Source: Ruditapes philippinarum (Eukaryota). From it: 64,000 nt of DNA. The stretch is taken from the NCBI RefSeq assembly GCF_026571515.1, contig NW_026864528.1, positions 1 to 64,000 on the forward strand, written 5' to 3'. Shown in pieces: positions 11,178 to 54,637 of the stretch. Within the stretch, counting starts at the first letter, position 1. Each line of letters opens with the position of its first letter. The notes below the pieces were generated by a model, which searched no databases, was not told the DNA's origin, and saw nothing but the letters and a program-made list of their open reading frames with translations. The position numbers were made by a program, and so were the translations under genes.

Positions 11178-11386
11178 AATTTTTGATCATCCTACGAGAA
11201 ACTGTGAATTACCTGTCCTTCAGATATTAAAGAAATTTTCAAATTCAAGGGCAGATAACTAGAAATTAATTTCTGTAAAAAAAAACCTTGTAATACATGT
11301 ATATACCTTTGAACTCATATTTCACCAAAGCGTTTCATTTTGTCTTCATACATTGCTTTCATAAGAAAGCCAAAATTCGAATGTTT

Positions 11387-22694: not shown

Positions 22695-23491
22695 TTTAGG
22701 CTGTGAGGAGCTTGTTGCCAACCGCCAATGTTTGGCCAGCTCCGCTCTATGATTGCCGTCACTATGTGACGTCTTGACGTTGTTCCTACTGTGACGTTAT
22801 TAATTACGTCATGAACCTTGGTTGGTTAACGTTTGTTTTATTAATATCACTATCTTAAACCACTGAGATGGAAAAGCTTAAAACAAAACTCGTTTTACAA
22901 AGATAAAGTGAAGCACTTTAAATGGAAAATTCTGCAAAAAATAATATTAAATTATACTCAGAATTTAATTTAAAAAAGTCTTTTTTGTGAAATTCTTAGC
23001 TCGAGTTTAGCAAAGCTTTCATTTGTGTGTCAAATTGCACAATAAAAATTAATATACTAGAAAAACGTTGTGAGAGAATGATCTAAATATTTACAAATGT
23101 TATAGGTTTATACCTACATATCTCGGAAAAAAAATATTTCCAGTCCCAGCATGTCAAGAAACCTCAGAAAAGTCCCTTTTAAAGGGACTTTTCTGAGGGT
23201 TTTTTTTTTGCATTATGGGACTGGAAAATTCTTTCGAGATTAATGCTCCATTTGATGCAGATCTAGACCAATAAATTGTGTGCAAAATGACAGATTGTTC
23301 GCTCACTCAGGTTTATTTTTTGTTGGTTTTTTTTGTTGTTGTTTTGTTTTTTTAGAAAAAAATATTCTTATTGTGCAAAATAACCCAAAATTGAAAAGCA
23401 TTGCAACGCTTTATACTCAAATCGGATTATTTGATTTAATCTGAGTATATTTCTTAATTATCTTTGAAATTCGCAAATATTATAATTTTAA

Positions 23492-23998
23492 AGGGATATT
23501 CAGGCAAAATAATGACAAAAAAAATAAAATGATCTTAAGTTCTCAAATCACGCTAAAATGACTTTTCTTGAAGTTACAGCATGTATTTCTGTTTAAATTC
23601 TAAATATTTTGGGTTTGAAGCGTACATATATCTATATATGTTGAACAAATTTAGACGCCAATAGAATCACCAAATAGTTTTAAAACAAGTCAGGTGACTT
23701 GAACAAACCCTTGAAGTTACAATAACAAATATTGTGGATATTGTATGATTGAAACAAGCCTAAGTCATTCATTTGACATGTTCAATAACGTTTCCAGAGT
23801 TCACTTTGACAACTATTGTGAAATGCTAGCGCTCTAACCTGACCCACGCGGGTCAAGTTAGGAAACCACCATTTTATTCTTTATATGGAGAAAAGTTTCG
23901 TTCCTTTGACTGTCTAATATATTTATTTTGAAGGCATTTACAAAATAATGAATGAAAACTTCAAAAATAAGGAATGAAAATTTTGCCTGTGTTTCCCT
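23492..23998. mobile_element. TTAA element (AGGGATATTCAGGCAAAA), present in duplicate B only
   Basis: Imperfect TIRs, TTAA on both sides, and absent from the homologous site near 1435. Confidence 0.78.
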
Positions 23999-29900: not shown

Positions 29901-30399
29901 GCTTTTTATATCTATATATAAAGATGCCTATTAAACATTTTGAGATATGCCAGACAAAGTTCTGTTTTAACACGATATTTTATAAACTGGCAGTTCTAAG
30001 ATGTTTTTCGTTTAGTCGTTAGTTTTATATATTTGAGCTGCATGAGTGTATATAGTTTTATTTGAAGTGATAGATTGTTATGTGTATGAATAATTATTTC
30101 AAGTTGTTTTGTTTCATACAGTTCCTATGTCTCTTTGATTTATTTTCCTAACAGTTGTAGTCTTTGAAACTTGTTCGACGCAGATTTATTGTATATGTAT
30201 TCGTAACGTATTTCTGTTGTTCTTTTCGATGCAATTTCTTTTTCCGGTTTGCATGTACATGTAGTGTGTCCGTTATGTCTGTACTTTATATCTAGTTTTA
30301 GTTCCTATTTCCATTTTGTACGTGTAATTGTATATGTACAGAATCCGTTTGGTGCAAATCTCTTTCAATTGCTTCTTGTTTGGTCATTTCTGGCCCTCA

Positions 30400-31700
30400 T
30401 GTATGCGTATTTCTGTGTATTTCCGTTTAGTATGTGCATGTATGTTTATTTCTGTGTATCGCCGTTAAGTATGTCCATGTATGTGTATTTCCGTTAAGTT
30501 TGTCCATGTATGTGTATTTCCGTTAAGTTTGTCCATGTATGTGTATTTCCGTTAAGTCTGTATGTATGTGTCTGTGTATTTCCGTTAAGTTTGTCCATGT
30601 ATGTGTATGTCTGTGTATTTCTGTTAAGTCTGTCTGTATGTGTAAAGTCTGTCTGTATGTGTATGTCTGTCCATGTATGTGTATGAATGTGTATTTCCGT
30701 GAAGTCTGTCTGTATGTCTATGTATGTGTATTTCCGTTAAGTCTGTATGTATGTGTATGTGTATTTCCGTTAAGTCCCGTATGTATGGGGTTGGGGGTAT
30801 TTCCCTTTAGTCCCGAACTTTTATGTTTTGTCCAAAGTATGTGTTGGGATGTTTTTATTTTTATGTATGGGTAATCCCTTAAAATCTGTCTGTATGTAGT
30901 ATATTTTTCCCTTAAAATCCCGTCTGTATGTAAAAGTGTATTTTGTTAAAATGTCTGTATATTTTTGTATGTTTTATGATGTATATGTGATTTTTGGGGT
31001 TTAAATCTGTCTTTAAAGTGTTGTTTTGTTTTTCCGTTTAAATCCCGTCTTTTTATGTGTTGTGTTTCCATTAAGTATTCTGTATGTGGGATGTATGTCC
31101 ATTATGTGTTGGGAGGGGTATATCCCTTAAGTCTGTCCCGTATGGGGTAAAATTTTGTGTTTTTTTTGTTAAGTGTGTCTGTATGTGAATGTCCCCGTTT
31201 CCAAAAAATGTGTATTTTATTGGGATTTTTTGTTAAGTAAAGTCTTGTCCCGTCTTTTGTATGTGTTTGTCCCGGGGGGTGTGCCCTTTTGTGTCTGTGT
31301 TTTCCGTTAAGTTGTTAAAGTATGTGTGTATGCCCGTAAATGGTTTTTTGTTTCGCCTTTGGAAATTTTGTAAAGTATGTCAAAAGTATGTTTTTTTCCC
31401 TTAAGTTTGGTAAATTTTCCCCTAAAGGGAAAAATTTCCCCCAAAGTGTATGTTTGTGTATTTCCCTTTAAATTTGTCCCTGTATGGGGGCGTTTGGGGT
31501 TTTTTCCCTTTTAAATAAAGGCCCCGATTGTGGGATGTGTATGTCCATGTCTGGGGTATTTCCCTTAAGTATGTATGTTTCATGTGTATGTATGGGGTAT
31601 TCCGTTAAGTTTGGGCCCTGGGTTTCGTATGTTTTAAAATATTTTGGGGCTCTCCCAAGCTTAAAATCTGTTCAAAGTATGTGTTTTTGTCTGTGTTTTT
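30400..31700. repeat. Second copy of the gtatttccgttaagtct satellite
   Basis: Same core and flanks as 7390-8770; degraded after about 30780. Confidence 0.8.
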
Positions 31701-31981
31701 TTCGTCTAACATTATGCGGTATGTATTTATTTTATGTTCTTATCCCTTCCCTCTCTATTTATTTAAAATATGGGGGGAGTAACGGGGGATCGAACCCCTT
31801 TCGGGCCTTGAATGTAAAACGTAGTGTCCACTGACCCAGCGCCCCTCTGATTTTTTAAATTTTTTGGAAACCCCCTATATAATTTTTTTCAAAGGCCTTT
31901 GAGTTTTGCAAAATTAAATTTTAACACCTTAAAAACCCGGTGGGCCAACCCCCCGTGCATTTTTGGGGGTTTTCGTAAAGA

Positions 31982-34900
31982 TACGGAAAAAGTAAATTAG
32001 TGCCAGGTGTATGTTTTTTATAATCGAAATTTCGAGATACTACTCGAAATTTCGACTTACTTTTCTCGGAAAATTTTGAAATTCTAAACTCGAAAATTTT
32101 GAGTTACTAACCGAAATTTAGACTTAGAACTGAAATTTGATTATTCCCGAAATTTGACTTAAGGGAAGTTTGAAAATTTGAAATTACTTATTTTCCCAAA
32201 TTTAGAAATTAGTAAAATCGGAAAAACGAAATTATTAAAATTTTAAAAATTGGGAAATTTTTTTTAGATGGTAAAAGATATAGTAGGCAGTGCCTTTTAA
32301 CGATGGAGATGGAGAAACGGGGGCCTGGAAAAAAACTATTGAAATTTAAAATTAAAACTTTGTAATGGATGTACCACCCGAATAAAAAAAAACAAGGCTT
32401 CCTTTAATTTTTTACGTTAGGCGTTTTTTCAGAAAGTTTTTTTTGTATCCCATCTGTTTTGAACATATCTTTTTACTAATCATTTCTTCCTTTATTCCTT
32501 TAAAAAAAACGATTCCTTTTTTTTTACGTGTGGGAAAATCTGAGGAAAAAGGTTTTCGGGGGGGTGGCCAAAAAAGGGCGTGCTGAGGCCTTTGTCAAAA
32601 GGGTTTGGGCCCGACTATATTTTTGTAAAAACGGATGCCTTTTTTTTTTTGTTTCCCCAAAATATATATTTAAAAACAATATCACTTTTTTTTCAAAATT
32701 TTTAAACCAATATGAAAAAAAAATATTAGTAAAAATGAATTTGTTACAAAAAAAATTATTAGGGATAAAGAAATGTTTACAAAACTAACTGGCCTATACA
32801 CGCCCAATTTTAAAAAAATTTTCCCCAAAGATAAATTTCCCCGTTTACAATAGGGTGGGTTTTTTGGAAATTGTTGTTTTTTCCATTAAAGGGTTTTATG
32901 TGTGCTTAAAAAAACACCCGTTTTAAAACGGAAATGTGGAAAGTGGTTTTTTTCACCCCCCCCCCCTCCCCAAAAAAGGGAAAGGAAAATGTTTTAAATA
33001 AAGTGTAGAAATTTTACCCCCATAAAATTCTTCCCGGGGGTCTGTCAATGTGGGAACAAAGGGGAAACATTAAATTGGCCCGGTTGGGATGTTTTTTTTT
33101 AACTCGAAATTTCGAGTCCTAACTCGAAATTTTTGAAATTAAATAACTGAAAAATTTTTGATTTCTTTCTCGAAATTTCAGTTACAAAACCCAATTTGAA
33201 TTATTAACCGAAATTTCGAGTTTTCTTAAACTTTGAAATTTCGAGTAACTAACTTAAAATTTCGACTTACCCAAAATCGAAATTTCGAAATTACTAAAAT
33301 CGAAATTTCGACTTACTAATCGAAAAATTTTGACTTACTAAATCGAAATTTCGATTACTTTTCTGAAATTTCGACTTAGTAAATCGAAATTTTGAAATTA
33401 GTAACTCGAAATTTCGACTAAAATTGAAAAGACTTTCAATTTGGGTTTCCGGGGAAAGCAAAAGGGTTGAATTTCAAGAAAACTTTCTTTCGTGTGTAGC
33501 TTTTTTTGCACATTTGACAGAGGGGGCCTTTAAAAATTTAAAATTTTAAAAAGGAAACAATTTTTAATGGGCAAAAATTTTCCCCCACATATTTAACAAA
33601 ATCCTTCGCCCTTTTTTTTGGAGGGGGGGGGGGGGGGGGGGGTTTAAAAACACACTTTCCCCATTTCCGTGTTAACAGGGGGGTTTTTTTTCTTAACAAC
33701 ATACAACCATCAAAGTGGAGAAACAACAAAATCCCGAAAAAAACCCTATTGTTAATTTTGCAATATCATTTGTTTAAAAAAGTTTTTAAAAAGGCGTGTA
33801 TACGCCTTAGTCTGGGACGTTTTTTTTTGTTTCTAATTTAAAGTTTTTGTTTAAAATTAAATTTATTATTTTTTCTAAAAACTTTGATTCATATTGTTGA
33901 TAAAAGTTGAATTTAAAAATGAAAACTTGTTTTGTTTTTTATATAAAGTTGGGAAAAATATAAAAAAACATCCGATTTTACAAAAAAATATTTGTCAGTC
34001 CAAAAATTTTGACAAAAAGGGCCCCAAAACACGCCCTAATTTTGGGCCCCCCCCCGCGATACTTTCCTTTAGAAAGTCCCAACGTGAAGTATAAAAGATG
34101 TTTTTTTACAGGGATGGGGAAGATATGATTTGTGAAAAAAATGGGTTGAACAGGTGGGGTACAATACAGAGGGCTGAAAAAGCGCCTTTAACGTACAAAT
34201 TAAAGGGAAACTTTTTATTTTTTAAGGGGCGGGTGGGGGTACATGCCAAAATTTCTAAGTTTAAGTTAAATTTCAAAAAGTTTTTTTCCGGGGACCCGTT
34301 TTCCAATTCCTCGTTTCAAACAGCAGTCCCCAATATTTTTCCCTTTTACCATTTAACTAATAAAATTTTGGCCCATTCTTGAAATGTTAATAAAATCGAA
34401 AAATTTTGAGTTACCCAAGGGCGAAATTTCGAGATAAGTAACTCGAAAAATTTTGAGTTAGTATGTCGAAAATTTTTTATTTTGTAAGTCGGGAAATTGG
34501 GGGTTTTGTAATGAAATTTTGAGTTACTAAACGAAATTTCAGAAAAAAGAATCGAAAATTGGGGGTTTGTAAATCGAAAATTTGATTAATATAAATCGAA
34601 AAAAATTTTCGAAAAAATAATTTTGAGTTAGTATGTTTGGGAAAATTTCGAGTTAAAAAAAGAAATTGAAATTTCCGGGGTTTGTAAATCCAAAATTTCG
34701 AGTTAAGTAAAGGAAAAATTTTAGATAAGGGAATTGTTTCGAAATTTAATTTTCGAAATTTCCCAGTTTTAAAAAAAAATACACCTGGAAAAAATGTCTT
34801 TCCCTAAACAACAACTACACACGAAAAAAGTATCTTTAATTTCAATCCTTTTCCCTTTTAACGGCAACCAAAAAAAAATCGTGCCCGTGTAAGTGGTTAA

Positions 34901-35753: not shown

Positions 35754-38405
35754 GTATCTACACTAATCAAAAAGTTATTATTAATTACTCAAACTTTACA
35801 TTCGGGCGTAAATTGTCCCGTCTTTGTGGTGCTCCTGTGATTAATTTTATTATATATTGCCTCTTTTATTTACGTTTGATCTTCTCTTTTATTTCCTTTT
35901 AATTATTTTATTTACTTTGACATGTTTCATCGGCCATGTTGCTGCAGCTTTTGTCAGGCGCGGATTTAAGGGTGAGCCCCTATCACTCTTTGTTAATCTG
36001 TTTTCTACAAAGTTTTTCAAACTTTTAAAACAATTAAAAACTGACGTATTCCATAGCTGTAATACGTTTTCTTGTGTTAAATTAACATGATTTTCAAAAG
36101 AGGGTAGATAAAAAAAATGGGGTGTTTAAAATGTTTTTAATTCCCAAAATGCATTAAAAGTTAAAATATCAAAACTTTCTGCGGGCATTTTTTTTCTTTT
36201 AAGGGGGAATTTCACATGACATCAAAAATAAGTATGATATCCTGTCACATTCAGTGCTTTCAGCACTTTGATTACAGACAAACCTCCTGAAGCCGACTTG
36301 ACTGTGGAACCTTACAGCCTCCACGTGTACATAAGATTGTTCTCCTGAGAAGAATCCCGCTCATGATAGCCTTAGAAAGTCCAAATGTTTTTTCTAGCAT
36401 AAGGTCTTTACTGGTAGTCGGCACGATAGGCTATGCAGCTTCCAGGTACTAAATGCAGCTTTCGCTGTCAAGTACGGAACTCAGACATGTCACATGTCAT
36501 GCCCTTAGAGGGTTAATTTTGAAGCACAAACTGGTAATATGTTTTAATTATGAGGTCACATCTAAATTATGGTCATAAATATGGAATATACGAAGCCAAA
36601 AGTAAGATTTCATTGCAAATATTTCTCTTACAGATTCACTTATTTTTTATAAATGTCTTTGCCATGCTCAATATCTTTTTCTGACATTGACTGTGGTTTT
36701 GTCCAAAGGCCGGCTCATTGTCTAAATGGCGCATATTCCTGGCAAAGAATGGTCTTAATTTCTCAAGAGAAATGATTCTCAAAGATAATCGGTCTATCTT
36801 GTCAACATCTGTTGATGTGTTATCACTTGTCTAACTGAATTTTCTTTGATATTTTTTTCGTATCTTTATAGTGATCATAGTTTGGGCAACCGGCATGCGA
36901 CAGTAAATAAAAGAAAAGAAGTAAAAAATCACAAAAGCTACTGTATTTTCGTGTTTCTTTTAATTGTCTTAGGACGATTATTCTTCTGTCTTGTTCCTAA
37001 CAGTTCAGGCGAAGTAACTCCTGAAAAACAATGTGTTGATTCGAGTAAGAATAATGTAAATGTCATAAAGATGGAGTTGAAGCTTCGCGCAATATAACAT
37101 GAAAAATAAAAAAGGTCCGAACAAAAATACGCGGGCCTATTTTCATGCGCGGACATATACTCGGTTCCAAAAGAAAGTGTGCACTTTTTAATGTTGAATA
37201 TTTAGAAAATTAGCAGACGTTTCTTTTCAAATTCTTGGGCATTGTTTAGTCCACTAAGTACAGACATAACACTCGATCAATATAAAACCCATCGGGTTAT
37301 ATTTCAGATGAGTCTAGGTTTAACCTTAGTCATCATGACGGTCGAATTCGAGTTTTTAGAAGAAGACAAAAACCGCCGAAAACAAAGGGCACACTTTTTT
37401 TTGGAACCTAGTATATATTCATGTGGTGGTATATTCATGTACTGCTATCTTAACCGGTTTTGACTGATATTTCCGGACATACGGACTGGTACATGCACAT
37501 AGGGACTTTGCTATTTTGGTCGAGATTATCAATTTGCAAAAGAAATATAATGATTTAATGCACTAGATGCTATAAACGCACGAGTAATGAGTTTTTGTGA
37601 AACCTTTACGGCTGTAATCGTGTGCGCCTGTCCAATTCTAAATAGGTTAATGAATGATGTATTGTTCTTTTTGTGAACGTTTATTCTTGATAAAATGTTA
37701 ACAGGTGAATTCACACTTGGATAGTTTCTTTTGGAGGAGAAAGGTGCGTAAATTATGATTGTGTCATCTTACTAAATTGTAAATAGTCAGTATTAAATGC
37801 GTCTGACGAATTTTCGTTTGTTGTGTTAATTCATTTATTTCTTGAAGGGGACGGGGTGAATAAGTCTTAGTATTAATATAGAATATGATAATAAATGTAA
37901 CCAAGTCATTGGGATCATGTGAATTAAATAATTATCAATTTTATTTTGAGAGGTACCACTCGATTTATTTGGTGATTATTCACAAAATTTAATCGAACAG
38001 GCTAGAATGATAAAACTAACGCTACTCTATTGCCAGTGTTAACGTTACCTTTTTAAATTCGAACTATATGCGGTAACTTAATAGGTTGCTCCAAAATTAT
38101 TTTAGATACTTTTATTAAAAAAAATAAGAATTACAATAATGTCATTGTTATTTAATATAAAACTTTTAATTTCCATTTTCAGTGTTTTTGAATGGTTTAC
38201 AAGTCATGAGAGTAAATAAACATGTAATGCTAAATTTACACAGAGAAGAATATATGACATAGATCTACATGTATATTTTTCTCAACATGTATACAAAATG
38301 AAGGTGTTGCGAAATTTTTAAATTCTAAAGATCATTGATTTCATCATAATATTATGTACATTATTTTGACTACATTTTGTTTTTTGCTAGAAAGCAAGTG
38401 TCATC

Positions 38406-41400
38406 ATGCGGAACTCTGACAGAATGAACGCTCCAGCTTCATTGGTAGCAGCCATCTTGTTCACGTGTATTCTTGGCGCATGCGCACAGACACGTGGTCG
38501 TCGCATTATCACGAGAATTCATTCCAATGAGCTCGTGATTCCTTTGCATCACAAGCAAAACGCCATCGACATGAAGACAGGAAAAGCATATGCTCCAAAT
38601 AGTAAATATGATTAATAATATATAATTTGTTTAAAACTGAAACTTTGAAACAGCCCATTCTAGGCTAAGTTAAGAGTATTAATTAAATCTTACTCAAACT
38701 TGTTTATACTGTCCGAGATTGCCGGTTGTCTGGTATATACTTGAGAATCAAGGGCTAATCATTTCCGGTTCTATCACAAATAAGCCTTAAGTATAATTAT
38801 GTTATTATTGAATGTATCATTAAAGGCCCATTAAATGGTGGTAGTATGCACCAGAAATGCTTTTATTTCAAATGTTTTTATTTTTGATGTACGTTAACAG
38901 TTTCAATAATGTTACTCATTGGCCAATTACCTAAATTTTCTTTTTCATCTGTTGCATTTTGGCAATTAGTACATTGACAGTAATTTAGTATTGTGTATGG
39001 AAGTAAAAATACTACTTTGTTTATGTTTTGCTAAATTTATGACAAGTTTGTCGATATTTCCTTCAGGCAACAAGCATCTAACATGCTCTAAAACCATTGT
39101 TTAAACGTAATAAATTTATGTTTGTCCTTTCTTAAGAAGTAAAAATTTATTCGTTTCTTAGGGATAATGTACCTTTAATTCTTCGTATATGAAATATCTA
39201 CTTTTGTTAATTTCAAGAATACACGTGACACGTGTTGTTAATAAAAAGACTGTTTTATGCACATACTAATAATAATATATATGTCAAACTTAGCAGTTCT
39301 CATAGTTTTGTTTACATTCCATTACCGAAAGGCCGAAACTGTTCAATCTTAAAATATCTATATTAGTTCGATTGCAAAACAAGTTCTTCCAACAGTTACT
39401 TATATAAATCCGAAACTACATGAGCTTTTCCCCCAAAAAAATTAAAAAAGGAATTATACATTGTGTACATGTATATGTATATATGTGTATACATTTCTGT
39501 TTTATTGTGTAAAGAAGCGTTATTTTATGCACATTATTCACGACATTTGACGTTTTAACGAGACACTGATTCATTTAAGGCTGTCACGATATAATGAAAA
39601 TATAATGTAGTTTTGAATACTGCAGTCATGTTTATATACATCCATATGCTTATATTCATTTAAACTTGAACTCTTAAAACAGTTTCGTATTTTACGACAT
39701 GGTTGAGTTGGTTTTAGATAACCTTTACCAGGCTAAATATCTTTATTTGGACGTGTCCATTAATCAAATATAAGGAATTATTTAAAATTAAGTATTGGTT
39801 GTGTAGCGAACAGTGCAGACCACGAAGAAGATATGTCAGTTAATATTTGTCTGCAATTGTCACATGGCTTGAATTTGTTGGCGACAGTAGCCTTAACGTT
39901 AATATGATGATTATGAAGACGACGACGATGATTATGATGATGAGGGTGATTATGGTGGTGATGGTGGTTGTTGTGATGATGATAATGATGATGATGATGC
40001 TGATGAAGGTGGTGGTGATTATGATTATAATGATGATGGTGATGATGATGATGATGGTGGTTGTTATAATGTTGATGATGTAGGTGANNNNNNNNNNNNN
40101 NNNNNNNNNNNNNNNNNNNNNNNNNNNNNNNNNNNNNNNNNNNNNNNNNNNNNNNNNNNNNNNNNNNNNNNNNNNNNNNNNNNNNNNNNNNNNNNNNNNN
40201 NNNNNNNNNNNNNNNNNNNNNNNNNNNNNNNNNNNNNNNNNNNNNNNNNNNNNNNNNNNNNNNNCGGTGGTGGTTGTGGTGGTGGTGATAAACTGGTAAC
40301 GAAACAACGATGACGATTTGAATGACAATAATGATGATCTAGATAATGTTAAATGTGATCATATTAATTCCAAAGATGACCGAGAAGATAATCATGATAC
40401 CGACCTTGATGATCAAGTTCATGGCATTCATGTTCTTGATCAGGACGATCATGGCATTGATCAAGATAATGGTAAATATTATGATTATGAAAATGCTTAA
40501 TTTAAGTAGACTTTTAACGACGATGGTTGTTTTTGATTTAAATGATTGTGGTATATTAAATTTTGCATTCGTAACGCTTATTGATACAGGTTGCGGAACA
40601 GGCTGTCCTCCGCAGTGGGTCGATGTTGTACACAGCATGGCTGGTCTCGTCCCGAATGTATCCGAACCCATGTGTGAGTTTGCCGACAAGTTTTCGCCAT
40701 GCTACCACGAGGGAGATGTCTGTCCTAAAAATCTTGTAGAATTCACGTGCTGTCCGTCCAGATGTATGCCTTCTGTAGACGCATGTTACCATGGCAACCC
40801 GCCGGAGTTTCTTTGTGTGCCTAAATCTATACAGCGTACGTATTGTTTGAATTACATGAATCGTGTCCGTCGCCATTTTGTCTAGATCTTAATGACTTTT
40901 GTTTCATTCCGGTTGTCAAAATTGTTATACAGACAAATTAGGTTCGTTTGATGTCGCTGTTAGTATGTCATGAATCATCTTTCAAAACTATCTCGATTGT
41001 TTACCTTGAGTCAGCATTCACGCGACGTTTGATTAACGTTGTTTATACGTTGGAACCAAGCGTAGGATTAAGTAGGAATTTAGAACAGTCAGTTACTGTT
41101 CCAAAGATTGTGATATTCAAAAGCTTAATATACGTATAGTTTGCGAGGCCAGGCTGCTGTTCTAGTTTCCTGGCTTGGTCAAACACATGTATAATGATGG
41201 AATAGGCAAACAAATAGTTCAATTTTAAGTTTAGCCGAAAATCTAGGCCATATGACATTTTTGCCATTTTATAGCTTTACTGGCGAAAGAAAAGGATTGT
41301 AGGCTAGTTTGAAAGCGTCCTCACATGTATGTATCCAATATGACTAAATATCAGATCGTTTTAGGTTATTTCTTGCGCGTAGCTAAATTAGGAGCTGATC

Positions 41401-41603
41401 TTAAACAGACTGGTATGTATCCAAAATTTCTGGTGGGTTTCAGATCTGCACAAGAGAAAAGCCTGTGATTTGAAGTAAAGAAGGCGGTGTCGGAAAATTA
41501 TTTTAATTACGTGTATGTTAATTTCGTTTTTTCTACAATTTCAGCATGGTTGGGGACAATCTTCCGACTCAACATCTGGGATCCAAATCAGCACTATCAG
41601 TGA
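38406..41603 (+). CDS. Secreted 10-cysteine protein, paralogue 1; join(38406..38601, 40590..40835, 41545..41603), 166 aa
   Basis: Signal-peptide-like MNAPASLVAAILFTCILGACAQ. All introns phase 1 (196+246+59=501 nt). Core CGTGCPPQW..MCEFA..C..C..FTCCPSRC..ACY..LCVPKSIQPW. AATAAA at 41686. Confidence 0.75.
39900..40500. repeat. (GAT/GGT)n trinucleotide tract containing an N gap at 40088-40263
   Basis: Read directly; lies in intron 1 of paralogue 1. Confidence 0.9.
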
Positions 41604-41974
41604 GCAAACGACACATAAAAAGCAAAACAACAAAATATCACATCATTTGTAATATTTGTATTCATTTGTTGTCTGTCTCGAGTTCAATAAAATGTGGGGA
41701 AAATGTTTAAATTTCTAAACTTTTATTATCTCAATTCCAACGCAGTGATCTCCCCTTTATTTTTCAAATTTTGATTTTTGATTTTCTTCCACTTTCATAG
41801 ACCCTTATTATTTCGGCAAAAGGATGTATACAATGAAAATTATTTTTTTTTGATCGAGTATTTAAATATGCTTTATATATATAAAGGACCAGCTGTGATG
41901 AAATCGACTTGTCGATATAAGTTGTAAAACCAAAAAAACCCTAAATACTGGAGTAAGCCCTTATTTTGTCTTCG

Positions 41975-42163
41975 ATGGCGACTTGATAACTTTACTGGTG
42001 GCAGACGGCCTCATGTGCCCTTCTGTGCATTTTTTCCGGCAAAGGATTTCGTGAGCAAGCTGGATGGGAAAATCTAAACTCCCTGGTAGAATTTGAACAC
42101 ACAGCAGTGAGGGGTAATTGGTTTGAAGTTAACTGCCTTAACTTCTCAGCTACGGACGCCCCT
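41975..42163 (-). mobile_element. SINE, degraded
   Basis: Reverse match to SINE head and body; a further fragment lies at ~42720-42790. Confidence 0.6.
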
Positions 42164-45100
42164 TTTCGTACGTGTGCACAACAAAGTCAACATATATATA
42201 CAACTCCATATCATGGCATGAAGTCGGATTCGACACCACAAAAAAAATGGGGAAAATCAACTTGGTCAACAAATCTGAAACTCTTTGTGATGCATGCATC
42301 TTCTTTCAATTGACTTGATTGACATTAATAGAAAGCAATAAATATAATCAAATCATAGCATAAAAATTGCGGAATCATACTAAAATAACTGAAGTAGTGC
42401 CATATATAATCACCTTATGTCAGAGGTCTATTGCGAAGTATAATAGCTGAGGAAATCAAATTGCCAGGCAAGTGGTCACACATAGGGCGAATTCAATTTT
42501 AATGCTTATTGGCGTTATTTTTTGTTGTTTTATTTTTCTCTTTTTTCTCTTTAGTTAAAGTTATGAACTTAAATGATCAATTAGACAGATCCAGCATTTT
42601 TTTGTCAATGTTAATTTAATGCATTGCGCCACGCCCTACAAACACCCGCTTTACCCACTTTATGATAACGGTGTAAAACGATCGATATGTGCCATAAAAA
42701 AGTTCACCTCCGAGTGAATCAAGGTTCCTTAAGCTACCTGGAAAGCTTCCCCACCTGAAAGAATCCGAAGTCTCCGACAAGGCGACGAGGAGTCAATAAC
42801 CTTACTACACAGCCGAAATCGCCCTAAAAGTTAAACACTTAGCTTCACATCGCCTACAAGTTCTGAGCCCATCTTCGGTTAACATAATTATGCAACTCTC
42901 ACAAACTTCTGCCCGGTCACAGTTGGGTTTGGTTCGAGATAGGACCGCATTGGCAAGTGTGTCAAATGCATTATACTTTAACATTTTGCAGATTGATGAC
43001 TCACAAAAAATATAAAGCACTCTATAAAGTACTTTTAAACCAATCCCTTCCCACCCGCCCCATCCCCAACCCCTAACCCCCCCCCCCCCTCGAAGAAAAA
43101 AATAAAATAATATAGATAAATACATAAGAGAAAATAAAAACATATTTATACATGAAACACTTTAGTTTGTATGGTATAATCATAACATTAATGAAATTTT
43201 CTTGTAATTGGGTTATTGTCATATATTTGTTCAAGAAGGGCACGAGCACTTTCACGTTTTAATGGTTTGTTTTATTGATGCATAAATGCAAGGTGATATC
43301 AATGTGATCGAGGTGATATCAATCATTACATTTGAGCTGCATTAATTATCTTATGATTAGACAAAATATTTGCATCCTATTCATCAACAGCTTGCAAAAA
43401 ATCGGCAGATTTCGCCAACTTCCGTAAAGACAGGTGTCGCCAAAATCTCGCCTTGACCTATAGACGATTACTGAATTTTAAAAGACACCGGAAGGACGAA
43501 ATAAATATAATTTCCATAATTAAGAAAAGGATATATCAATGTCATTTCACAGAATTTCGAATGTTCTGTTTTCCCTTCGTCCGGTGTTAAAGCAATTACT
43601 GAATACAAAACGATTCTATATCAAAGAATAAAAATGTCGGTTATACTTCACGTAATGCGACTTTGCAATATCAAGGCATGGCGTTAATGCACCACCATAC
43701 AAAGATTGGCGACATTTTCTGACTCATTGTATTTAAACAAAATAACAAAACATACAATACATATATATAAAACGTCTTTGCTACAAAGAATATTAATTAC
43801 AGGTTTGTATTTTATTGCTGTTTCCTGGAATAAATGTTGATATTAAATGCACCGCTAGATACGATTTATTTTTGTCATTTAGCTTCATTTTATGCATGTA
43901 CGTTCGTCTTCTGTCTTACCTTGTAGCTTGTTTGTTTAAACAACCCAATGTCATTGTCTTGCATTATTCGAACCCACAGTTTAAGGACCGAGAGATTCAT
44001 GATTTGCACATTTTAAGGACATTCGGCCATCGAAGCCCTTATGTCGAAATTTGTTTTAAAGTTGTAACACTATGTGGAGGCGTTTGCTTAATAGTTTTGG
44101 TGTGTGCCAATCTAACCCTGGTGTAAAAGGTTCGAGCTCGACCAGGTACGCCACTATGCTTCTTCGCGCGTGTCACCAGCTGTGGTGAGCTCACGAAGCG
44201 AACTTGAACTTGTTTTCACAATGAAACTTCATATAATGACAATTCCTTGTTTCTATGCTCGAATCTACAATTTCCGTTTCTTTATACATGTTATCGGTAC
44301 TTTAACAAATATATGTATTCTATGTAGCAACAATTTAGCGCGTATAAAACTGTCCTTATTTAGCATTCACATATAAATCTTACAAAAGTTATGCTTTCAA
44401 AGACATATAGTCATTTCATAACACTATACATTGTAGAATGACATCAACAACTTTTTCTGGAAGCAAATGCAATGTTTCCTTTCAAATTAGAAAACAGGCA
44501 TAATGAATACAAAAAAATACGTTATGTGAATGAAAAGGTCACAGTGTACCATGTGTAATTGGGGTTTTTTAGAATGCAAGACGTCGACACAAGGCCGCTA
44601 GCAAAGTGCCAAATTACCTTTAAACAAATCCGCGTGTTGTAGTCTTTTTGTTTACGTATTGTTGTTTTTTATTTATCAGTTTATTGTCTTTTAGTTAACG
44701 TATTGTCGTCTTCTCTTTAACGTGTTTTCGTCTGTTACGTTAACGACATTTGGCTTGTTATATAAGTTTTTACATCGCCTACTTTGTTGTTTCCAACACT
44801 GATTTTTATTACTTTGTTTTTTTTCCGTCCTATTTTATAACAGCGGCAATCCGTAAAACAAGGTAAAATTCACAATAAGACACAATACATATTACACCCA
44901 TCACCTTTAACGCTTGTAACTCATAAACAAAATTACTCAGTAACAGGTGTTTGAAATTGACGTTCCGCAGGACAACGTAATAACGTTTGTTTTTTAACGT
45001 TTGAAACAAATACATTCTTGTTCATGACTTAAGACGCGTCAAAATGCATATTGCAACACTTTAAATAGCTCTGATTATAATGTTTGAAGGTAAAAAGAAC

Positions 45101-46786
45101 ATTGGATCGTGAAGCCTCGGGCTGACAAATATGCTTTGAACATGACAGAATAGTCAATAAAAGTGACGTGTTTTACGACGGCTTTATTGTTATTAAAATA
45201 ATATACTTCTTCATAAACATGAAAGCTTATTGTATATTGTCTCATTGCGGTTTCTCTAGGTTTCCCAATTGAGGCTCTTCTTTAGTGTGACGCTTTGTTG
45301 TATGTATATTTGTATGTGGTCTATGTTTAACGAGGGTCCATCCGCCCATTCGCTGTCGAGTATGGACCCCAGACATGTCACCAGCCATGCCCTTAAAGAG
45401 TTATTTTTGAAGCATAAAGTGGTGATAATTTACCTCTATGCAATTTTAACGGAGTATTAGCCAAAGATATGAATTTTGAGCCAAAGTAAGTCACTGTACG
45501 GCGGTCAATGAGAACCTAAATGTACAGTAAAAATACAGAGACAATAATGAAAGGGGGTAGCCCTTAAAAGGGTCTGCCTTACAAGCCGCCATTCGTACTA
45601 GGGGCTAACACACCCAAGTTCACCATCCTCGTCGACTCTGACTACTTTGTAGGGCCACTCCCCTCGCCGTCAGTCAGGATACTGGCAGTTAACGTCATGC
45701 AAGCTAAGTTGTGACGTGCCGTATCTGTAGAAAACATACGAACTTGCCGTTTTTCACGTAGCATTGGTTCTTCAATAATCTGCTGATGCCCTGTGCCTTC
45801 TCAACGACGTCCACGTGTCGAGAGAAAGAGAAAAGTGTGACGCCTTATCTATAGATTATGACGCAAATAGCGGAATTCCGAGACGTATTGTAGTATGACA
45901 TATTACGTCGTTGTTTGAAATAGCTACTGAAGATTCTTACTGGTTTTGACCAATGATAAGTCTTATTTATAATAGTATTAAAACAATTTTTAATTTTGAA
46001 AATGACGCTTTTGTAAGCCATTATACAGTATTTACAACGTTATATCAGAAATAAAAAAAAATCGATCATGTTAAAAGTTTGTTACGTCAATAACTTTTAT
46101 CAAATCAAATTTATAAAGTAATCTCTCTTTCCGTAAATTTACGAATAATCGTCAATTATTATCAGCGGTGTAATTTTTTTTTATCCTTGCAACATTTTCG
46201 TTAAACTTCTGTAATAACCGGCGTTATTTGTATAAGACGTCAAATTCCAGGTATATGCACAAAACTGGCCTTGGTATAAAGCTATTTACTATCACGTGAT
46301 TGGTCTGGTATTCGATTTTAATATGCGAATTTATCGACTATGATATTTAATAAACAAGTTGGGTAATTCTTTTATTCATTCATATTTTCTAAAACGTCAA
46401 AGATGGCATTGAGCGTGAAGCAAACGATAAGTAAAAAGAAACAGAGTGCCTAAAGAAAGCTTTAAAAATCTTGCCGCCTCGGTTTAATTGATCTTGTTCA
46501 TGGACGGTGAAGATAAGTGCAAGCTCCCAACACCGACCAAAGCAGTTTATAACACTTATATAGTTTTTAATACACGACAACGGTGAAAATTTGAATTAAG
46601 ACACCGTCCGTCGATCTTGCGCTGACAAAACCACATAGCTAGACGGACGGGCCTCCAAGTTTACGACATTTATAATAAAGAGAGTGTAAGTGATAGGCAC
46701 AGGACGATTGTAATTGTTAAAGTGTGTTTATCATTGGTCATTATTACGCTGACAATACACTGACAATATCACACGCAGGATTATTC

Positions 46787-49700
46787 ATGGAGATCTCACT
46801 GAAATATTCACATTGGATAACTTTGTTATCGTTCGTTTGCTTGTGCGTCCGTCTGAGCGTTTGCCAAGCCCCGCCATCGCCTTCACAGAATTCACAGAAC
46901 AACTCTAACCAACCAAGTATGTATTTTGATTGATTTAAAGGCGCATTATGCCTCAGAAACAAATAAATTTTTTACATCTTTAGAAAGAGCAAACATGAAT
47001 TTTATAATGTTTAAATAATGGTTTTAGAGAATGTTAGATACTTGCTACCTGATGAAAGCAGCAATAAATGGGCAATAAGTTGTCATAAAAAAGAGCAAAA
47101 TGTAAACAAAGTGATATTTTGACTTTCATACAAAATACTTATTCACTATAATTGAAATTATTGTGAATGCAACATATCAAAAAGATTAAGTAATTGGCCA
47201 ATAAGTAATTTTTTGGATACTATAAAAGTACACCAACATTAAAAACATTTTAAGAAATAAAAACGAATGCATTTCTGATGCATAATGGGCCTTTAAAGAT
47301 AAAGAGGACGTGGAAAATATGCTCATATACAAGAACACTAAAAATATTTCTTTTACATTATTTCTCTACTGTGAGTTATACGTATAAAAAAATGTAAATC
47401 GTTGATCATAATGTACAGGAAGAATGAAAAAATGACTGTATGAGGACAGGTGTTTAAAGCTGCATGCCTCCAGATGAACCAGAATAATTTAAGACAATTA
47501 AAACTTTGGAAAGCTTACTAAGATTGTTTACGAATGGTAAAAAGATTCAAGATTCAAGAAATGATACCTTATATGCTATAAATAACTGATTTTGCAGCTT
47601 TTATCACCTTATTTCTTCTGCGTTACAAACGCAGGTAAGGATATTTATGCATATTTTTACCGCTTTTTGGTAATTTACGTGGATTGTAAATACAGTTTTC
47701 AATGTGTAAATTACTTTGTTTGTTCATTTCATAATATCTGTCTTTTAAATACATTTTCAAAATGTTCATGAAAAAAAGGATAAATGTGGCGGCGTGCTTT
47801 AAATGTTTGTTATTATCTTAAGACATTTTGTATTTTTGTTTTGTTGTTTTTAGGTGCTTGCGGAAACTGCAGGCCGGCTTGGATCACCCAATTAGATGGC
47901 TTTAAATCTATTATAATTGTGAGTAAATTTACACCTTCTATAAATAAAAAAACCAGCGAACAAAATATGCCACTGTCTGAAACGAATTTGTCTTGAAAGC
48001 TTGTGTTTGGCAGACAAAATTACGATAAAAAAAGTAGTCTGTAAGCCAAAAGTGGAGCCCAGTCTGACTGTGTGGATGTGCAGGCTGGTCGGACTCTATA
48101 CTGGTTGCAACAGATATTCCAGCACGGTACACGTTTAAAGCGGCACTCATCTTTCATTTTCTGTTGGAAAAACAATTCTGTGTTGTTTCAAACTAATTAT
48201 TTCGGTAATTTTATCATAGAAAATGTGCATCGTATCACTGTCAGCCTTCTTCAGACGCTACATGAGCCGCGTCACGACAAAACCAACATAGTGCGTATGC
48301 GAACAGCATGGATCCTGATCAGACTGCGCATCCGCACAGTCTGATCAGGATCCATGCTGTTTGCTATCCCTTTTTTACTTGCTATAGGGTTTGTAAGCGA
48401 ACAGCATTGATCCTGATCAGACTGCGCGGATGTGCAGGCTGGTCTAGATCCATGCTGGTCGAAAACCCATTATGTTGGTTTTGTCGTGACGCGGCTCACA
48501 TGTATTTATAACGAGTAAGTGCTTTATTTTGTATTTCCAGCTCCTAGCTGGAAATACAAAATATATGTATTCTGTATGGCACACAGCAGATATAGCAGAT
48601 AAATGTAAGTATTTTGTATGAAATACAAAATGTACGTATTTTGTATGGCAAACAAAATACCCCTAAAATCTTCTCTTTTATTATAGGTTCGGTATATATT
48701 GCCATCGCCATTTACTATGCATTGATAGACAGATATTTTAGTCTGAATAGTCAGTGTGCAGCATTTGTTAATTATATCTCTTTACAAAATTAAGTAACAC
48801 AATTCAAGAAATTAGACCTGTTGATGAAGACTGTTTGTGGGCTTATTTTTATTTCCTCAATTTCGCCTCTGTTAGAGTTTTTATTGAGTGTCAAGACAGT
48901 CAATGACCCTGATTTATTTGACCTATAAAAGGAGTAAAGGGAGACAACTATAGACTGTTTCTTAATAAACAAGGGAAGTAATACCCGCCTTCTTGAAAAT
49001 GTCATTCACATGATTTGTTTCTCTTTATTTAGCTGAGCAATAGAATGAAAAGTATCTGTAAATTTGCATTAGACAAAAACGTGGTGAATGTGTGTAGAAA
49101 TAACAACTGTAATCACATGGGTGGAGCAAATTTCTGTTGCTGTCCAATGGAAAAATTATCCTTAGTAAATGAGTGCTTCAGCAAGACTACAACAACCGCC
49201 TGTGTACCAAATGATATCAAACGTAAGTGAAATATATAGTTTATTTTATGTCAATTATTATATATTAACCTTCGTCAATTGTGTAATAGATGTGCATAGC
49301 TTTGACTTTGGAATAGGCAATTCAATGTTTAAGTGACTACAAAACTTGAGCTATTAATAGTATGGAACATGCTACGACTGCGCATGCGTACAGACTCGCC
49401 CGGAAGATAATGATTTAATTAAATTCAGTTGTCCAAATCAAAATTTTAGTTAGATTTTGTTTTAGAATAATTGCCAATGTATGATGAATTACTAAATTAT
49501 TAACTGACTGTTCTGGACAGTTATANNNNNNNNNNNNNNNNNNNNNNNNNNNNNNNNNNNNNNNNNNNNNNNNNNNNNNNNNNNNNNNNNNNNNNNNNNN
49601 NNNNNNNNNNNNNNNNNNNNNNNNNNNNNNNNNNNNNNNNNNNNNNNNNNNNNNNNNNNNNNNNNNNNNNNNNNNNNNNNNNNNNNNNCCAACATAATGG

Positions 49701-51211
49701 GTTTGCGCAGTCTGATCAGGATCCATGCTGTTCGCTTACCAACCCTATTACAAATAGAGAAACTGATAGCGAACAGCATGGATCCTGATCAGACTGCGCG
49801 GATGCGCAGGCTGGTCTGGATCCACGTTGGTCGCAAACGCACTATTTTGGTTTTTGTCATGACACGGCTCATATAACACTTAAGGAAAATAACCAGTATT
49901 GCAAAGCCTTAATCTCCACAGGACGCTATTGGTTTTAATCTCGGCTAATGCTTTTTGCTTCGTTCATTAAACAGAACTATCCAGCAAGCTACATGTAGCT
50001 CGCTCCATATCATTTTTATTTATTTATTTTTGTGGTTGGGGTTATCGCTATGCATATAACTGATTTCATAAAACAGGTAGCACGCATCAATGCATTTACA
50101 ATATGACATTATACACGTATGAGCACAACTATAGCTAGGTCTGGCTACTGACATTGAAAAAAAAATGGTTTTGCTCTTAAAAGTTCCGTATATTTCTCAA
50201 ACTGTTCGACTCGTAAACGCCGTTCTCCCACGCACTGATGTCCCCTTACAGGATAAGATATCTACCATCACAACATCTATTTTTAAAAAAAGTAAACACT
50301 TTTTTGTTAATGTTTCAAGACCGTAAGAAGTTAGAGGTGAACTTGTGGCCGAGTGGTTTAGGTCGTTACCTTCAAACCACTTGTCCTCACCGCTGTGGGT
50401 TCGAATCCCTCCAGGGAGTTTGGACTCTTTCGTGTGTGGAAGCTTTCCAGCTAGCTTACGGAACGGCGGTGGTTCTGCTAAACTGAAATAATGCACGAAA
50501 GGGCATCTTAGGTCTTCACCCACCAGTAAAGCTGGAACGTCGCCATATGACCTATACTGTGTCGTAAAACTCAATCAAATAAACGGACAAAACCGGGGAA
50601 AAATCTTAAGTACTAGACGCATTCTTAAAAGCTGTAGACTCTTTATATGATGAATGATAATACTTATAAAATGACACTTTTTATTAAATTTTACAGGTTG
50701 GCAAGATGGATTTCAACAGGCTTTCTTCGGTACGTGGATGCATTTTATTTACTCTGTTGGTTTAGTTTTGTTTTCATATTTTTTGTTTCGTATTTATACT
50801 CAAAAGAACACTGCATTCTAAATATTGTTTGTTAAAGGCATAGAAACGAATAAATTTTTGCTTCTTTAGAAAGGACAAACAAAAGTAAACGGACTAATTA
50901 AATGCAATGTTTGCCTTGTGTACCTCACACAGCAATGTCTTACTTGTAAAAGAGAGACTGTTCCAAGGGCATGTATAGCACATTACATTTAATAAAAGTA
51001 TGTAGTGTCCCATTAGTAGGTCAATAGATGTCCCTCCCACCAACACAGGAAAAAAATGACCACCATTAAAGTATATTGTCTTTTAGTAGTTAGTTTCCTC
51101 CATAGCATTACAAATTCTAATAAATATACATTTACCGTGTTTATGACGACAAGAGTTATTTCCCTTGTCAGCATTCACCTTGTAAATTCATTTGCAGACG
51201 ACTACGAATGA
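46787..51211 (+). CDS. Secreted 10-cysteine protein, paralogue 2; join(46787..46916, 47854..47918, 49033..49222, 50697..50729, 51198..51211)
   Basis: Signal-peptide-like MEISLKYSHWITLLSFVCLCVRLSVCQ. Phase-compatible GT-AG junctions. Core CGNCRPAW..ICKFA..C..C..FCCCP..ECF..ACVPNDIKRW aligns with paralogue 1. AATAAA at 51353. The last exon is the least certain. Confidence 0.72.
46939..47292. mobile_element. TTAA element, family AGGC.CATTATG
   Basis: TTAA|AGGCGCATTATGCCTCAGAAA...TTTCTGATGCATAATGGGCCT|TTAA. Confidence 0.78.
48263..48498. mobile_element. Palindromic MITE, same family
   Basis: Full-length match to 10941-11177. Confidence 0.88.
49526..49688. other. Assembly gap (N run)
   Basis: Run of N. 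Confidence 0.99.
49689..49871. mobile_element. Palindromic MITE, partial, abuts N gap
   Basis: Right arm matches the family. Confidence 0.8.
50336..50585 (+). mobile_element. tRNA-derived SINE, best-preserved copy
   Basis: A-box GTGGCCGAGTGG, B-box GGTTCGAATCC, body ccagctagcttacgga, 3' part aagctggaacgtcgccatatgacc, A-rich tail. Confidence 0.85.
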
Positions 51212-53054
51212 TGACAGCATTTCTATTACATAATGTGGGTCTGTCAATAGGGTTGTAAAATCTACATTTGTGTATCAATTAAAGATATACTATGAGCAAA
51301 TTTCTTATTAGAAAATATTGATAATAGCTATACACTGTCTTTGTAAAACTAAAATAAACATGTTTTATTACACATGAAGCAGATGTTTTTAAGACTCTAC
51401 TCACTGCAGCTGGTCACAATTTGAATATATAGTGTCAATTAAAAAACTGGTAGTTTTTTTTTTCAGAAAGAGCCAATTTTACTTGACCCATAGGGAACGC
51501 AGCTTCCCATACGTAGATTTTTCATTCTTTAATTCAAATTAGATATGCTCAGTAAGAATTTAATGATATACAATAAATTTCAATGATTAAAATAGTTTAC
51601 TTAATGATGAGCATAATATATCTTTAACAAACATAATTTGGGATTTAGGAATGAAACATTTTACCAATAAGTATCAATTACAATCACATACTGCATCCGG
51701 ATCAATGGAGGATGATTGTTAATATAGATCCATTATTAAGGTTGTCATTGCCCCCCCCCCCCCCCCCCTCTCGCATGAATCCAACAAACCTAAATTTCCG
51801 TAGTTGGTCAGTGTCAATGTGTATTATTAAAGTAAGATAATTTTTTTCTACCAGATGTATATTTTTGACTTTTCTGTTTTCCACTAAAGAAAGTATATTA
51901 TTTCCATCTTTTCGTTTCAGGTGGGCCTCAGAACGGTTGATTGGTTTTAAACATTCATCCTGGTCACCGGAAAGCTTTACCAAACCAAACGCCCAATGAC
52001 TTCAGTGATAATCTCCCTTTGCAAGATATGCTTACATACAATTTTTAATCGTCGCAATGCCGGACAGCTCTCTCGAGATAAAATGAAATATCTTCAACGT
52101 TAAGAAACATTATTTTGATTGAGCAATGAAAGGTTGTTGGCTTCTTGCTTATTTACACATCATTTACATATCATTAACATATCATTTGCATATAATTTTA
52201 CATTGTTAACATTTTTTACGCATTCATAGCGTAAAATAATATTTCTTAACTTGAATTCGTGCGACAAAATCGTTCTGTCTTTCTAGTAATTTGTATTATA
52301 TTATTGTTGTGTATGATGCTTTATGCAGGTTTTAATGCGAAATTACAATGTAATAAATAAAACCTTTGCTTAAATTTATAAAACCTTTGCTTAAATTTAT
52401 ATACCGATTTTCTGATTTTTATTTGTTTGGGTCGTCAGACCAAACAAATAATGGTAGCGAAATTTCAGACCCTGATGCTGTTAATTGCAAATGTCGAAAG
52501 TAGTCCGCTTTTTGAAGCGGTTACTTCCTTTTATATGTACACTAACGCCAAAAAATTCAGGGAGATCACTGCGTAAAGATGGTTAAATGACAGGCGCATT
52601 AATTTTCAAGCAAAATAGTTCCTGAATGGTCGAAGATTTCTAATATTGTTTTATTCTTTATAGATATTCGTGCATATAGTAAGCTCCATGATTATTTACA
52701 TCTGTGTTAAACGAAATAATAAGGGTTACTAACCCTAATTTAGAATAGTATGGTTTTCTTCATCGTAGGCGAAGGTTTTGCGCGCTCGATTAGGAAGCAA
52801 GAAGTCTGGAGTTCAAATCCCAGTTAAGGCAACTCATTTTTTTTTTCAAATTGTTTAAGTCAAATAAACATTGAATTGGATATCAGTGTTGCAATTAGTA
52901 TTATAGCCAATTTACTACAATTAAAACACTGGAAAGAATTGGTGGCACTATACAAAAACAAATTGGTTTATAATCTCACAACCTTCACCTTTCTGACATT
53001 CAAAGACCCAAACAAATTCAGTGCCTTCTGTGCTTTGATTATACATTTATATAA

Positions 53055-54047: not shown

Positions 54048-54533
54048 TTACTCGACCTCCATGTCGGTTTCATATTCTTCATCAGAATCCTCTATGTCGG
54101 AGTCACTGGAATACTCGTCGGTGTCAGGGTCCTCATAGTCCTGACTGTCGGCTGCGAAGAAGTTGTCACTAGCAGCTTCATCACTGATAACTTCCACGAT
54201 TTCGCCGAAAAGGTCTCGTCGGAGACTAACTATCTCGTATGCCTTTCGGTTTGCATATTCGTAAAACATGTTTCGGATTCCTTCTACTATTGCTAGGCGC
54301 AGGCGCAATTTGTACCGGAAGCTGCGATTCGTCTGCGTACGAGCTTGATGGTATCTGTAAAGAACGCCTTCCATTCGTCGATTCAACAGAACGATTTGGT
54401 CGCAGGCTCGTCGGAAATTATGCTGAGTGCGTCTTAAAATGATTCTCTTCGCCGTCATCACCTTGGCACGTGCAGGACTTGGTGTTCTAAACATGGTTTG
54501 TAGATAATGATTGGCAAAAATGAAACTTTGCAT
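54048..54533 (-). CDS. Intronless uncharacterised protein with Arg-rich helical N-half and Asp/Glu-rich tail, 161 aa (alternative start 54494)
   Basis: GC-richer open frame in AT-rich flanks. TATATAAA at 54645-54638 with an Inr-like TCACT about 30 nt downstream. AATAAA on the minus strand at 53924-53929. Confidence 0.75.
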   Translation of the reverse strand: MQSFIFANHYLQTMFRTPSPARAKVMTAKRIILRRTQHNFRRACDQIVLLNRRMEGVLYRYHQARTQTNRSFRYKLRLRLAIVEGIRNMFYEYANRKAYEIVSLRRDLFGEIVEVISDEAASDNFFAADSQDYEDPDTDEYSSDSDIEDSDEEYETDMEVE

Positions 54534-54637
54534 ATGAACGATCGAGGTAAATAGTATGAGAGCAATGTCAGAGCTTTTCGATGGTTATACCAAAGAAGAT
54601 CTCGGAATGCGAGTGACGATATTGGTAGTGGCTTCTG

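What the first reader, a model, noticed from the sequence alone, without database searches (positions are those of the whole stretch)
38406..51211. Two hidden paralogues define an unrecognised secreted 10-cysteine family with a relocated cysteine
Neither protein is visible in the ORF track. After splicing they share signal peptide, linker, CG.(.)C.P.W, C.FA, C, C, F.CCP, C[YF] and CVP..I.|.W, with conserved phase-1 introns flanking the core. Both keep 10 core Cys, but paralogue 1 has FTCCPSRC and paralogue 2 has FCCCPMEK. One Cys moved while the even count was kept, which suggests disulfide rewiring (inference). I do not recognise the framework; there is only a loose likeness to the WAP CC..C pattern. 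Low identity outside the Cys positions is typical of defence or shell-matrix peptide families.
Basis: partly seen in the sequence, partly recalled or inferred. Interest (0 to 1): 0.72.

Follow-up and report, generated by a model that had tools for sequence, protein, structure and literature searches.

The report
Undescribed clam ten-cysteine secreted protein pair
Two neighbouring Manila clam genes encode an undescribed family of small secreted proteins; in one lineage a stabilising sulfur bridge seems to have moved both its anchor points, but what the proteins do is still unknown.

Summary
Observation largely confirmed. Two spliced genes (A, 38406-41603; B, 46787-51940) encode secreted proteins with a homologous 10-Cys core. 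Both equal uncharacterised RefSeq models of Ruditapes philippinarum.

The pair has orthologues in Mercenaria, Mactra, Mya and Dreissena, so the duplication predates the Venerida-Myida split; low A/B identity reflects age. No Pfam family and no PDB match by sequence or fold was found. The 'WAP' label on two relatives is not supported.

CC-x3-C is the likely ancestral state (14 of 18 domains). CCC occurs only in the three Venerida B proteins, always with Cys1 also shifted, and one relative lacks Cys1 and Cys8 together. This points to one Cys1-Cys8 bridge moving both anchors, not global rewiring (inferred; no bond observed).

All 5 B proteins end in Gly(-Arg), an amidation signal; 4 of 5 A proteins have an RxxR site. 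Zebra-mussel B is mantle-specific (tau 0.97). Best guess: a soluble, processed mantle-secretion effector, more likely defence than shell matrix or signalling. A real new domain family with unproven function.

The parts
38406..38601 (+). Gene A exon 1: signal peptide, RxxR site (residues 30-33), conserved type-A N-terminal extension; phase-1 donor
   Evidence: identical to XP_060567152.1
40590..40835 (+). Gene A exon 2: the whole 10-Cys core as one phase 1-1 exon (Cys spacing 3-22-8-6-8-0-3-6-9)
40592..40594 (+). Gene A Cys1, first full codon after the intron (ancestral position)
40763..40765 (+). Gene A Cys8 (the last C of CC-x3-C), inferred partner of Cys1
   Evidence: position; pairing inferred
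41545..41603 (+). Gene A exon 3: conserved Trp, predicted C-terminal helix, stop
46787..46916 (+). Gene B exon 1: signal peptide and Q/N/S/P spacer; phase-1 donor
   Evidence: identical to XP_060567151.1
47854..47918 (+). Gene B exon 2: Cys1 (47859-47861, one codon later than in A) and Cys2, first helix; phase-0 donor (an intron that A lacks)
49033..49222 (+). Gene B exon 3: the other eight Cys; gained Cys at 49135-49137 (CCC); Lys at the ancestral Cys8 column
50697..50729 (+). Gene B exon 4: conserved Trp and predicted C-terminal helix
51921..51940 (+).
51198..51211 (+).

Best explanation
A and B are the two old subfamilies of an undescribed clam protein family. Each is a secreted precursor with one roughly 80-residue, five-disulfide alpha/beta domain that was originally encoded by a single phase 1-1 exon. 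Shown: gene structure, homology, age of the duplication, Cys states, mantle-specific expression of zebra-mussel B. Inferred: Cys1 bonds to Cys8. In Venerida B that one bridge moved both anchors (Cys8 lost, new Cys just before the CC pair, Cys1 one residue later) while the fold was kept. A is trimmed at an RxxR site and B is C-terminally amidated. Function (inferred, weakest step): a soluble effector in mantle secretions (mucus or pallial fluid) that binds an extracellular target, most likely in surface defence such as inhibiting a protease or binding microbes. Confidence is about 0.9 for the family, 0.65 for the moved Cys1-Cys8 bridge and 0.4 for the defence role.
For: 17 hits at E<=0.001 among 1.84 billion representatives; the 14 new ones all carry the framework. 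A/B split 100/99 with the trait columns removed; Ruditapes A+B as a clade rejected, p-AU 2e-107. Of 18 domains, 14 have CC-x3-C with C1-x3-C2, 3 have CCC with C1-x2-C2, and 1 (P0007 domain 1) lacks exactly Cys1 and Cys8. Intron-to-Cys2 distance is unchanged, so Cys1 itself moved. Both AF2 models have core pLDDT of about 75-93 and the same order of helices and strands. Hydrophobic N-terminus in 11 of 11 checked. Terminal Gly or Gly-Arg in 5 of 5 B and 0 of 5 A; background 37 of 1134 window segments. RxxR in 4 of 5 A and 0 of 5 B. Dreissena B (DPMN_073795): mantle 4702, foot 204, gill 60, tau 0.972, SignalP 1-25 (PMC9210306 supplement); peptidase inhibitors are enriched among mantle-specific genes there. 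No family peptide seen by eye among 67 Mya truncata shell proteins.
Against: The covariation rests on about two independent events, and Cys1 is at the domain edge where loss is easy. In the free tree the three CCC proteins are not one clade (2 changes; single origin not rejected, p-AU 0.26), and Mactra B may be a third paralogue. The two AF2 models share alignment rows, so their agreement is not independent. Low copy number, long-lived orthology and near-neutral charge in 7 of 10 cores are unlike typical cationic, fast-expanding antimicrobial families (my knowledge). Expression is known for one orthologue in one species and three tissues; type A was not found in the held text, which is cut and lacks the gill list. 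No activity data exist.
Confidence: 0.45

Rival explanations
1. Matrix component: the domain is a binding module of the periostracum, siphon sheath or shell organic matrix, secreted by the mantle edge.
For: Mantle-specific expression. The unnamed relative P0007 has a signal peptide, about 320 residues of basic T/S/P/R-rich sequence and two tandem domains, an architecture common in matrix proteins (my knowledge). A nearby Dreissena locus, DPMN_073783, is also a mantle-specific secreted protein. Stable low copy number fits.
Against: Not seen among 67 Mya truncata shell proteins (by eye, different species), nor by six exact motifs in the Tridacna crocea shellome supplement (weak test). DPMN_073795 appeared only in the mantle-specific list, not in the mantle differential-expression list. 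No acidic or low-complexity tract in A or B cores. A conserved amidation signal is unusual for structural matrix proteins (my knowledge).
Confidence: 0.3
2. Signalling ligand or pheromone pair: processed and amidated proteins released by the mantle or siphon that act on a receptor, like the attractin or temptin class of molluscan cues.
For: Amidation Gly in 5 of 5 B and RxxR in 4 of 5 A. Low-copy orthology across two orders. Temptin-like genes are among the top mantle genes in Dreissena.
Against: No similarity to any Pfam ligand family. Orthologue identity outside Cys is modest, 29-52% among B proteins. No receptor evidence.
Confidence: 0.2
3. True rewiring: in CCC proteins several disulfide partners are permuted among the three adjacent Cys, changing the local fold.
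For: Three adjacent Cys allow alternative pairings. The order of Cys along the chain has changed. Venerid B cores are more basic, +5 and +8, and Ruditapes B has a shorter C4-C5 loop.
Against: The other eight Cys columns are unchanged, and only Cys1 co-varies with Cys8. Predicted secondary structure keeps the same order.
Confidence: 0.25
4. A highly diverged WAP (four-disulfide core) derivative.
For: UniRef names two type-A relatives 'WAP domain-containing protein' (origin of the label unknown). The C-x6-C-x8-CC-x3-C part loosely recalls the WAP core (pattern recalled).
Against: 0 of 16 members match Pfam WAP at E<=10. The family has 10 Cys, different spacing after CC-x3-C, and several predicted helices. 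The family profile finds 0 PDB sequences.
Confidence: 0.1

Closest known systems
WAP / four-disulfide core domain (elafin, SLPI, crustins; Pfam PF00095; features recalled)
   Same: Secreted, small, Cys-rich; CC-x3-C motif; predicted strand pair ending in C-x-P; automated label on two relatives.
   Different: 10 versus 8 Cys; two extra helical segments and a C-terminal helix; no HMM match; inferred Cys1-Cys8 order differs.
Bivalve cysteine-rich defence peptides (myticin, mytilin, macins, big defensins, CRP-I; recalled)
   Same: Signal peptide, fixed Cys framework, variable loops, pro-region or amidation signals.
   Different: No sequence match; low copy number with orthologues across orders; mostly near-neutral charge.
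Lustrin-A cysteine-rich repeats (abalone shell; PMC5850307, passages read)
   Same: Molluscan mantle-secreted Cys-rich module used in tandem.
   Different: The 'ten cysteine' hit there means ten Cys-rich domains, not a 10-Cys framework; no Pfam Lustrin match; A and B are single-domain.
Molluscan protein pheromones (attractin recalled; temptin-like genes in PMC9210306 section 31)
   Same: Small secreted disulfide proteins; temptin-like genes are mantle-specific in Dreissena.
   Different: No sequence or fold match found; different Cys pattern.

Membership tests
WAP four-disulfide core | Eight Cys ending CC-x3-C-x3/4-C (pattern recalled) | tested here: not met
   17 of 18 domains have 10 Cys; after the CC pair the spacing is x3-C-x6-C-x7..12-C in the 14 ancestral-type domains
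WAP four-disulfide core | Match to Pfam WAP HMM | tested here: not met
   0 of 16 members at E<=10 (HMMER filters drop most matches above about 0.1)
WAP four-disulfide core | WAP fold | tested here: inconclusive
WAP four-disulfide core | Disulfide connectivity 1-6, 2-7, 3-5, 4-8 (recalled) | not testable with these tools
   Model coordinates not available; only Cys1-Cys8 inferred from covariation
Described bivalve antimicrobial peptide families | Sequence match to a described family in Pfam | tested here: not met
   No match at cut-off; weakest row Diapausin E 8.9 in 1 of 16; families without a Pfam model are untested
Described bivalve antimicrobial peptide families | Strongly cationic mature peptide | tested here: inconclusive
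   Net charge -5 to +8; +5 and +8 only in venerid B; 0 to +2 in 7 of 10
Described bivalve antimicrobial peptide families | Antimicrobial activity or immune induction | not testable with these tools
   No assay or usable expression table found
Shell matrix proteins | Mantle-specific expression | tested here: met
   Dreissena B orthologue tau 0.972; one species, type B only
Shell matrix proteins | Detected in a shell proteome | tested here: inconclusive
   Not seen in Mya truncata peptides of 67 proteins or by motifs in the Tridacna crocea supplement; no Ruditapes shell proteome was checked
Amidated secreted peptides (PAM substrates) | Signal peptide plus C-terminal Gly or Gly-basic | tested here: met
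   5 of 5 type B; amidation itself not shown
Inhibitor cystine knot / insulin-like CC-x3-C frameworks | Six-Cys knot or A/B-chain spacing (recalled) | tested here: not met
   Spacings do not fit; no Pfam match

The most novel reading that the evidence does not exclude
A clam-specific pair of processed extracellular ligands (A cleaved at RxxR, B amidated) with a fold not yet in the PDB, released by the mantle or siphon as a signal or pheromone. In Venerida B a disulfide migrated at both ends in one step, giving a natural before-and-after pair for studying how disulfide frameworks evolve.
Probability: 0.15. Interest if true: 0.72.

Novelty: new variant of a known kind. Interest (0 to 1): 0.42.

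Why it matters
It defines a new disulfide-rich domain family, possibly with an unrecorded fold, in farmed and invasive clams (Manila clam, quahog, soft-shell clam, zebra mussel). It also gives a dated natural case of one disulfide moving both anchors while the Cys count is kept, with ancestral and derived orthologues ready for direct comparison. If the proteins act in mantle defence or signalling they would matter for clam disease and zebra-mussel biology. Lineage-restricted Cys-rich secreted families are common in bivalves, however, and no function is shown, which limits the surprise.

Tried and rejected

A third paralogue in the window: the family HMM over 2935 six-frame segments hit only the three known core-bearing frames. 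A last word-index search with the 16-row alignment added nothing and missed most known members, so it is insensitive. The core-only tree was poorly resolved and did not join the two B groups; the full-length tree did.

Literature: accession and locus searches gave 0 papers. Topic searches listed no description of this family; these were seen as listings only. Mercenaria extrapallial-fluid tables (PMC8902148) gave no hit, but their visible column heads show no sequence field and the ID scheme was not checked, so this is uninformative; one file was too large to read. bioRxiv supplements and subscription papers, including any Manila clam shell proteome, were not seen. Contig collections of metagenomes and viruses were not searched, and genomic DNA around the relatives was not seen; tandem arrangement in other species rests on adjacent locus numbers and shared contig lengths.
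Full report
VERDICT. The two genes are real and homologous, and they belong to an undescribed clam family. The Cys shift is real and is best read as one bridge moving. Function is not shown.

1. Observation. Reading 37500-52500 and splicing by coordinate gives gene A (38406-38601, 40590-40835, 41545-41603; 166 aa) and gene B (46787-46916, 47854-47918, 49033-49222, 50697-50729, plus a last exon). All junctions are GT-AG. Each core has 10 Cys. The A/B local score of 90 was reached by 0 of 2000 plain shuffles and 0 of 2000 shuffles with Cys fixed. Gene A is identical to RefSeq XP_060567152.1, LOC132725948, Ruditapes philippinarum. Gene B matches XP_060567151.1, LOC132725947, exactly so when the last exon is 51921-51940. 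I did not see RNA reads. Assembly gaps lie in introns of both genes (40088-40264, 49526-49688). A family HMM over 2935 six-frame segments found no third copy in the window.

2. The family. A profile of three sequences against 1.84 billion representatives gave 17 hits at E<=0.001, 14 of them new. Ten were looked up: 7 are named (Mactra 2, Mya 2, Dreissena 2, Mercenaria 1) and 3 unnamed; four more stayed unnamed. The four species looked up are Neoheterodontei, in Venerida or Myida; Mercenaria is a venerid by my knowledge. Unnamed records leave the range open. Full-length proteins split into A and B with support 100/99 after removing the Cys trait columns, and joining Ruditapes A with Ruditapes B is rejected (p-AU 2e-107). 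The duplication therefore predates the two orders. Locus numbers are adjacent or close in Mercenaria, Mactra and Dreissena, and the two Mya genes share a contig length. Ruditapes/Mercenaria identity is 63% for A and 49% for B; A/B is 19-32%. Profile-profile A versus B gives probability 98.9.

3. Gene structure. Both genes have phase-1 introns at C2-5 and C10+7 codons; B has an extra phase-0 intron in the core and another near the end. In A the domain is one 1-1 exon. Six unnamed single-frame records read through at about the same two places (inferred from their flanking residues), and P0007 carries two tandem domains behind a long basic region. The domain behaves as an exon module.

4. The moved cysteine. 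I compared 18 domains: 10 named, 6 unnamed single domains and 2 in P0007; isoforms and duplicates P0001, P0006, P0008, P0019, P0021-P0023 were left out. Fourteen have CC-x3-C and C1-x3-C2. Three (Ruditapes, Mercenaria and Mactra B) have CCC, no Cys8 and C1-x2-C2. One (P0007 domain 1) has 8 Cys and lacks Cys1 and Cys8. Because the intron-to-Cys2 distance is unchanged, Cys1 itself slid by one codon in B. Myida B and all A keep the common state, so CCC is most simply one gain in Venerida B. The free tree needs two changes, however, and a single clade is only not rejected (p-AU 0.26). Inference: Cys1 bonds to Cys8, and in Venerida B both anchors of that bond moved. This rests on about two independent events, and Cys1 is a terminal residue, so it is suggestive and not proven. 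Permuted pairings within CCC are not excluded.

6. Clues to function. All 11 full-length proteins checked have their most hydrophobic stretch at the N-terminus; SignalP was not available. All 5 B end in Gly or Gly-Arg, against 0 of 5 A and 37 of 1134 background segments; 4 of 5 A have RxxR before a conserved extension, against 0 of 5 B. By established knowledge these are amidation and convertase signals. In the zebra-mussel genome paper (PMC9210306: passages, section 31 and supplement searches), DPMN_073795 has the same letters as P0012 and is listed as mantle-specific: 4702 versus 204 in foot and 60 in gill, tau 0.972, secreted, hypothetical. It appeared in no other held list. Type A was not found, but the archive is cut and the gill list is missing. 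By eye, no family peptide is among the 67 Mya truncata shell proteins (PMC5854119 supplement parts 1-2). Six exact motifs were absent from the Tridacna crocea shellome supplement (PMC8217771, supplement search only). Both are weak negatives. Core charge ranges from -5 to +8.

7. Mechanism. Most likely a soluble, processed effector in mantle secretions that binds an extracellular target, defence-type (about 0.4). Rivals are a periostracum or matrix module (0.3) and a signalling ligand (0.2). Stable low-copy orthology argues against a classical fast-evolving antimicrobial family; amidation signals argue against a plain structural protein. No activity was tested.

8. Comparison with what is known. 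There is no Pfam match at cut-off in 16 members and no PDB sequence hit. UniRef calls two type-A relatives 'WAP domain-containing protein', but Cys number, spacing and the HMM test fail, so I do not file the family as WAP. A distant WAP-like sub-core is not excluded. Accession searches found 0 papers, and seven topic searches listed no description (listings only, plus passages of PMC5850307). Subscription papers were not searchable. WAP, antimicrobial-peptide and attractin features are recalled, not fetched.

9. Score. A new domain family of a familiar kind (lineage-restricted secreted Cys-rich mollusc proteins), with a neat and testable disulfide-migration case and an expression lead, but no function. 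Interest 0.42.

Noticed in passing
window 7-9049 versus 22036-31982: A segmental duplication offset by about 22 kb, 70-86% identical in blocks. It carries minus-strand frames (114-710, 21897-22796) with an internal repeated motif and a marginal Pfam Tau95 hit (E 1e-5, 25-27 bits versus cut-off 23.7), possibly compositional.
   Followed up: partly
window 14516-14906 (-): Exon-like hydrophobic, Cys-containing frames that resemble a small membrane-protein family (recalled as TMEM272-like; no Pfam hit), next to an inverted duplication 13465-14049 / 14048-14627.
   Followed up: no
window 48263-48498, 49705-49854, 10940-11180, 19349-19565: Copies of a palindromic element of about 240 bp (MITE-like), two of them in introns of gene B.
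   Followed up: no
window 39886-40340: GAT/GGT trinucleotide tract around an assembly gap in intron 1 of gene A; it gives spurious low-complexity ORFs.
   Followed up: no
protein P0007 (unnamed, 560 aa), residues 346-432 and 467-553: Secreted protein with a long basic T/S/P/R-rich region and two family domains, the first with only 8 Cys.
   Followed up: partly
PMC9210306 supplement, DPMN_073783: Another mantle-specific secreted hypothetical protein twelve locus numbers from the Dreissena B gene; possibly a mantle-secretome cluster.
   Followed up: no
protein P0001 (unnamed JGI record): A single-frame gene call that reads gene A's core exon together with flanking intron sequence; an annotation artefact of a near-identical clam sequence.
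   Followed up: no
window 54048-54584 (-) and 63308-63919 (-): Open frames of 178, 121 and 81 aa without Pfam hits; the first has an acidic tail.
   Followed up: no
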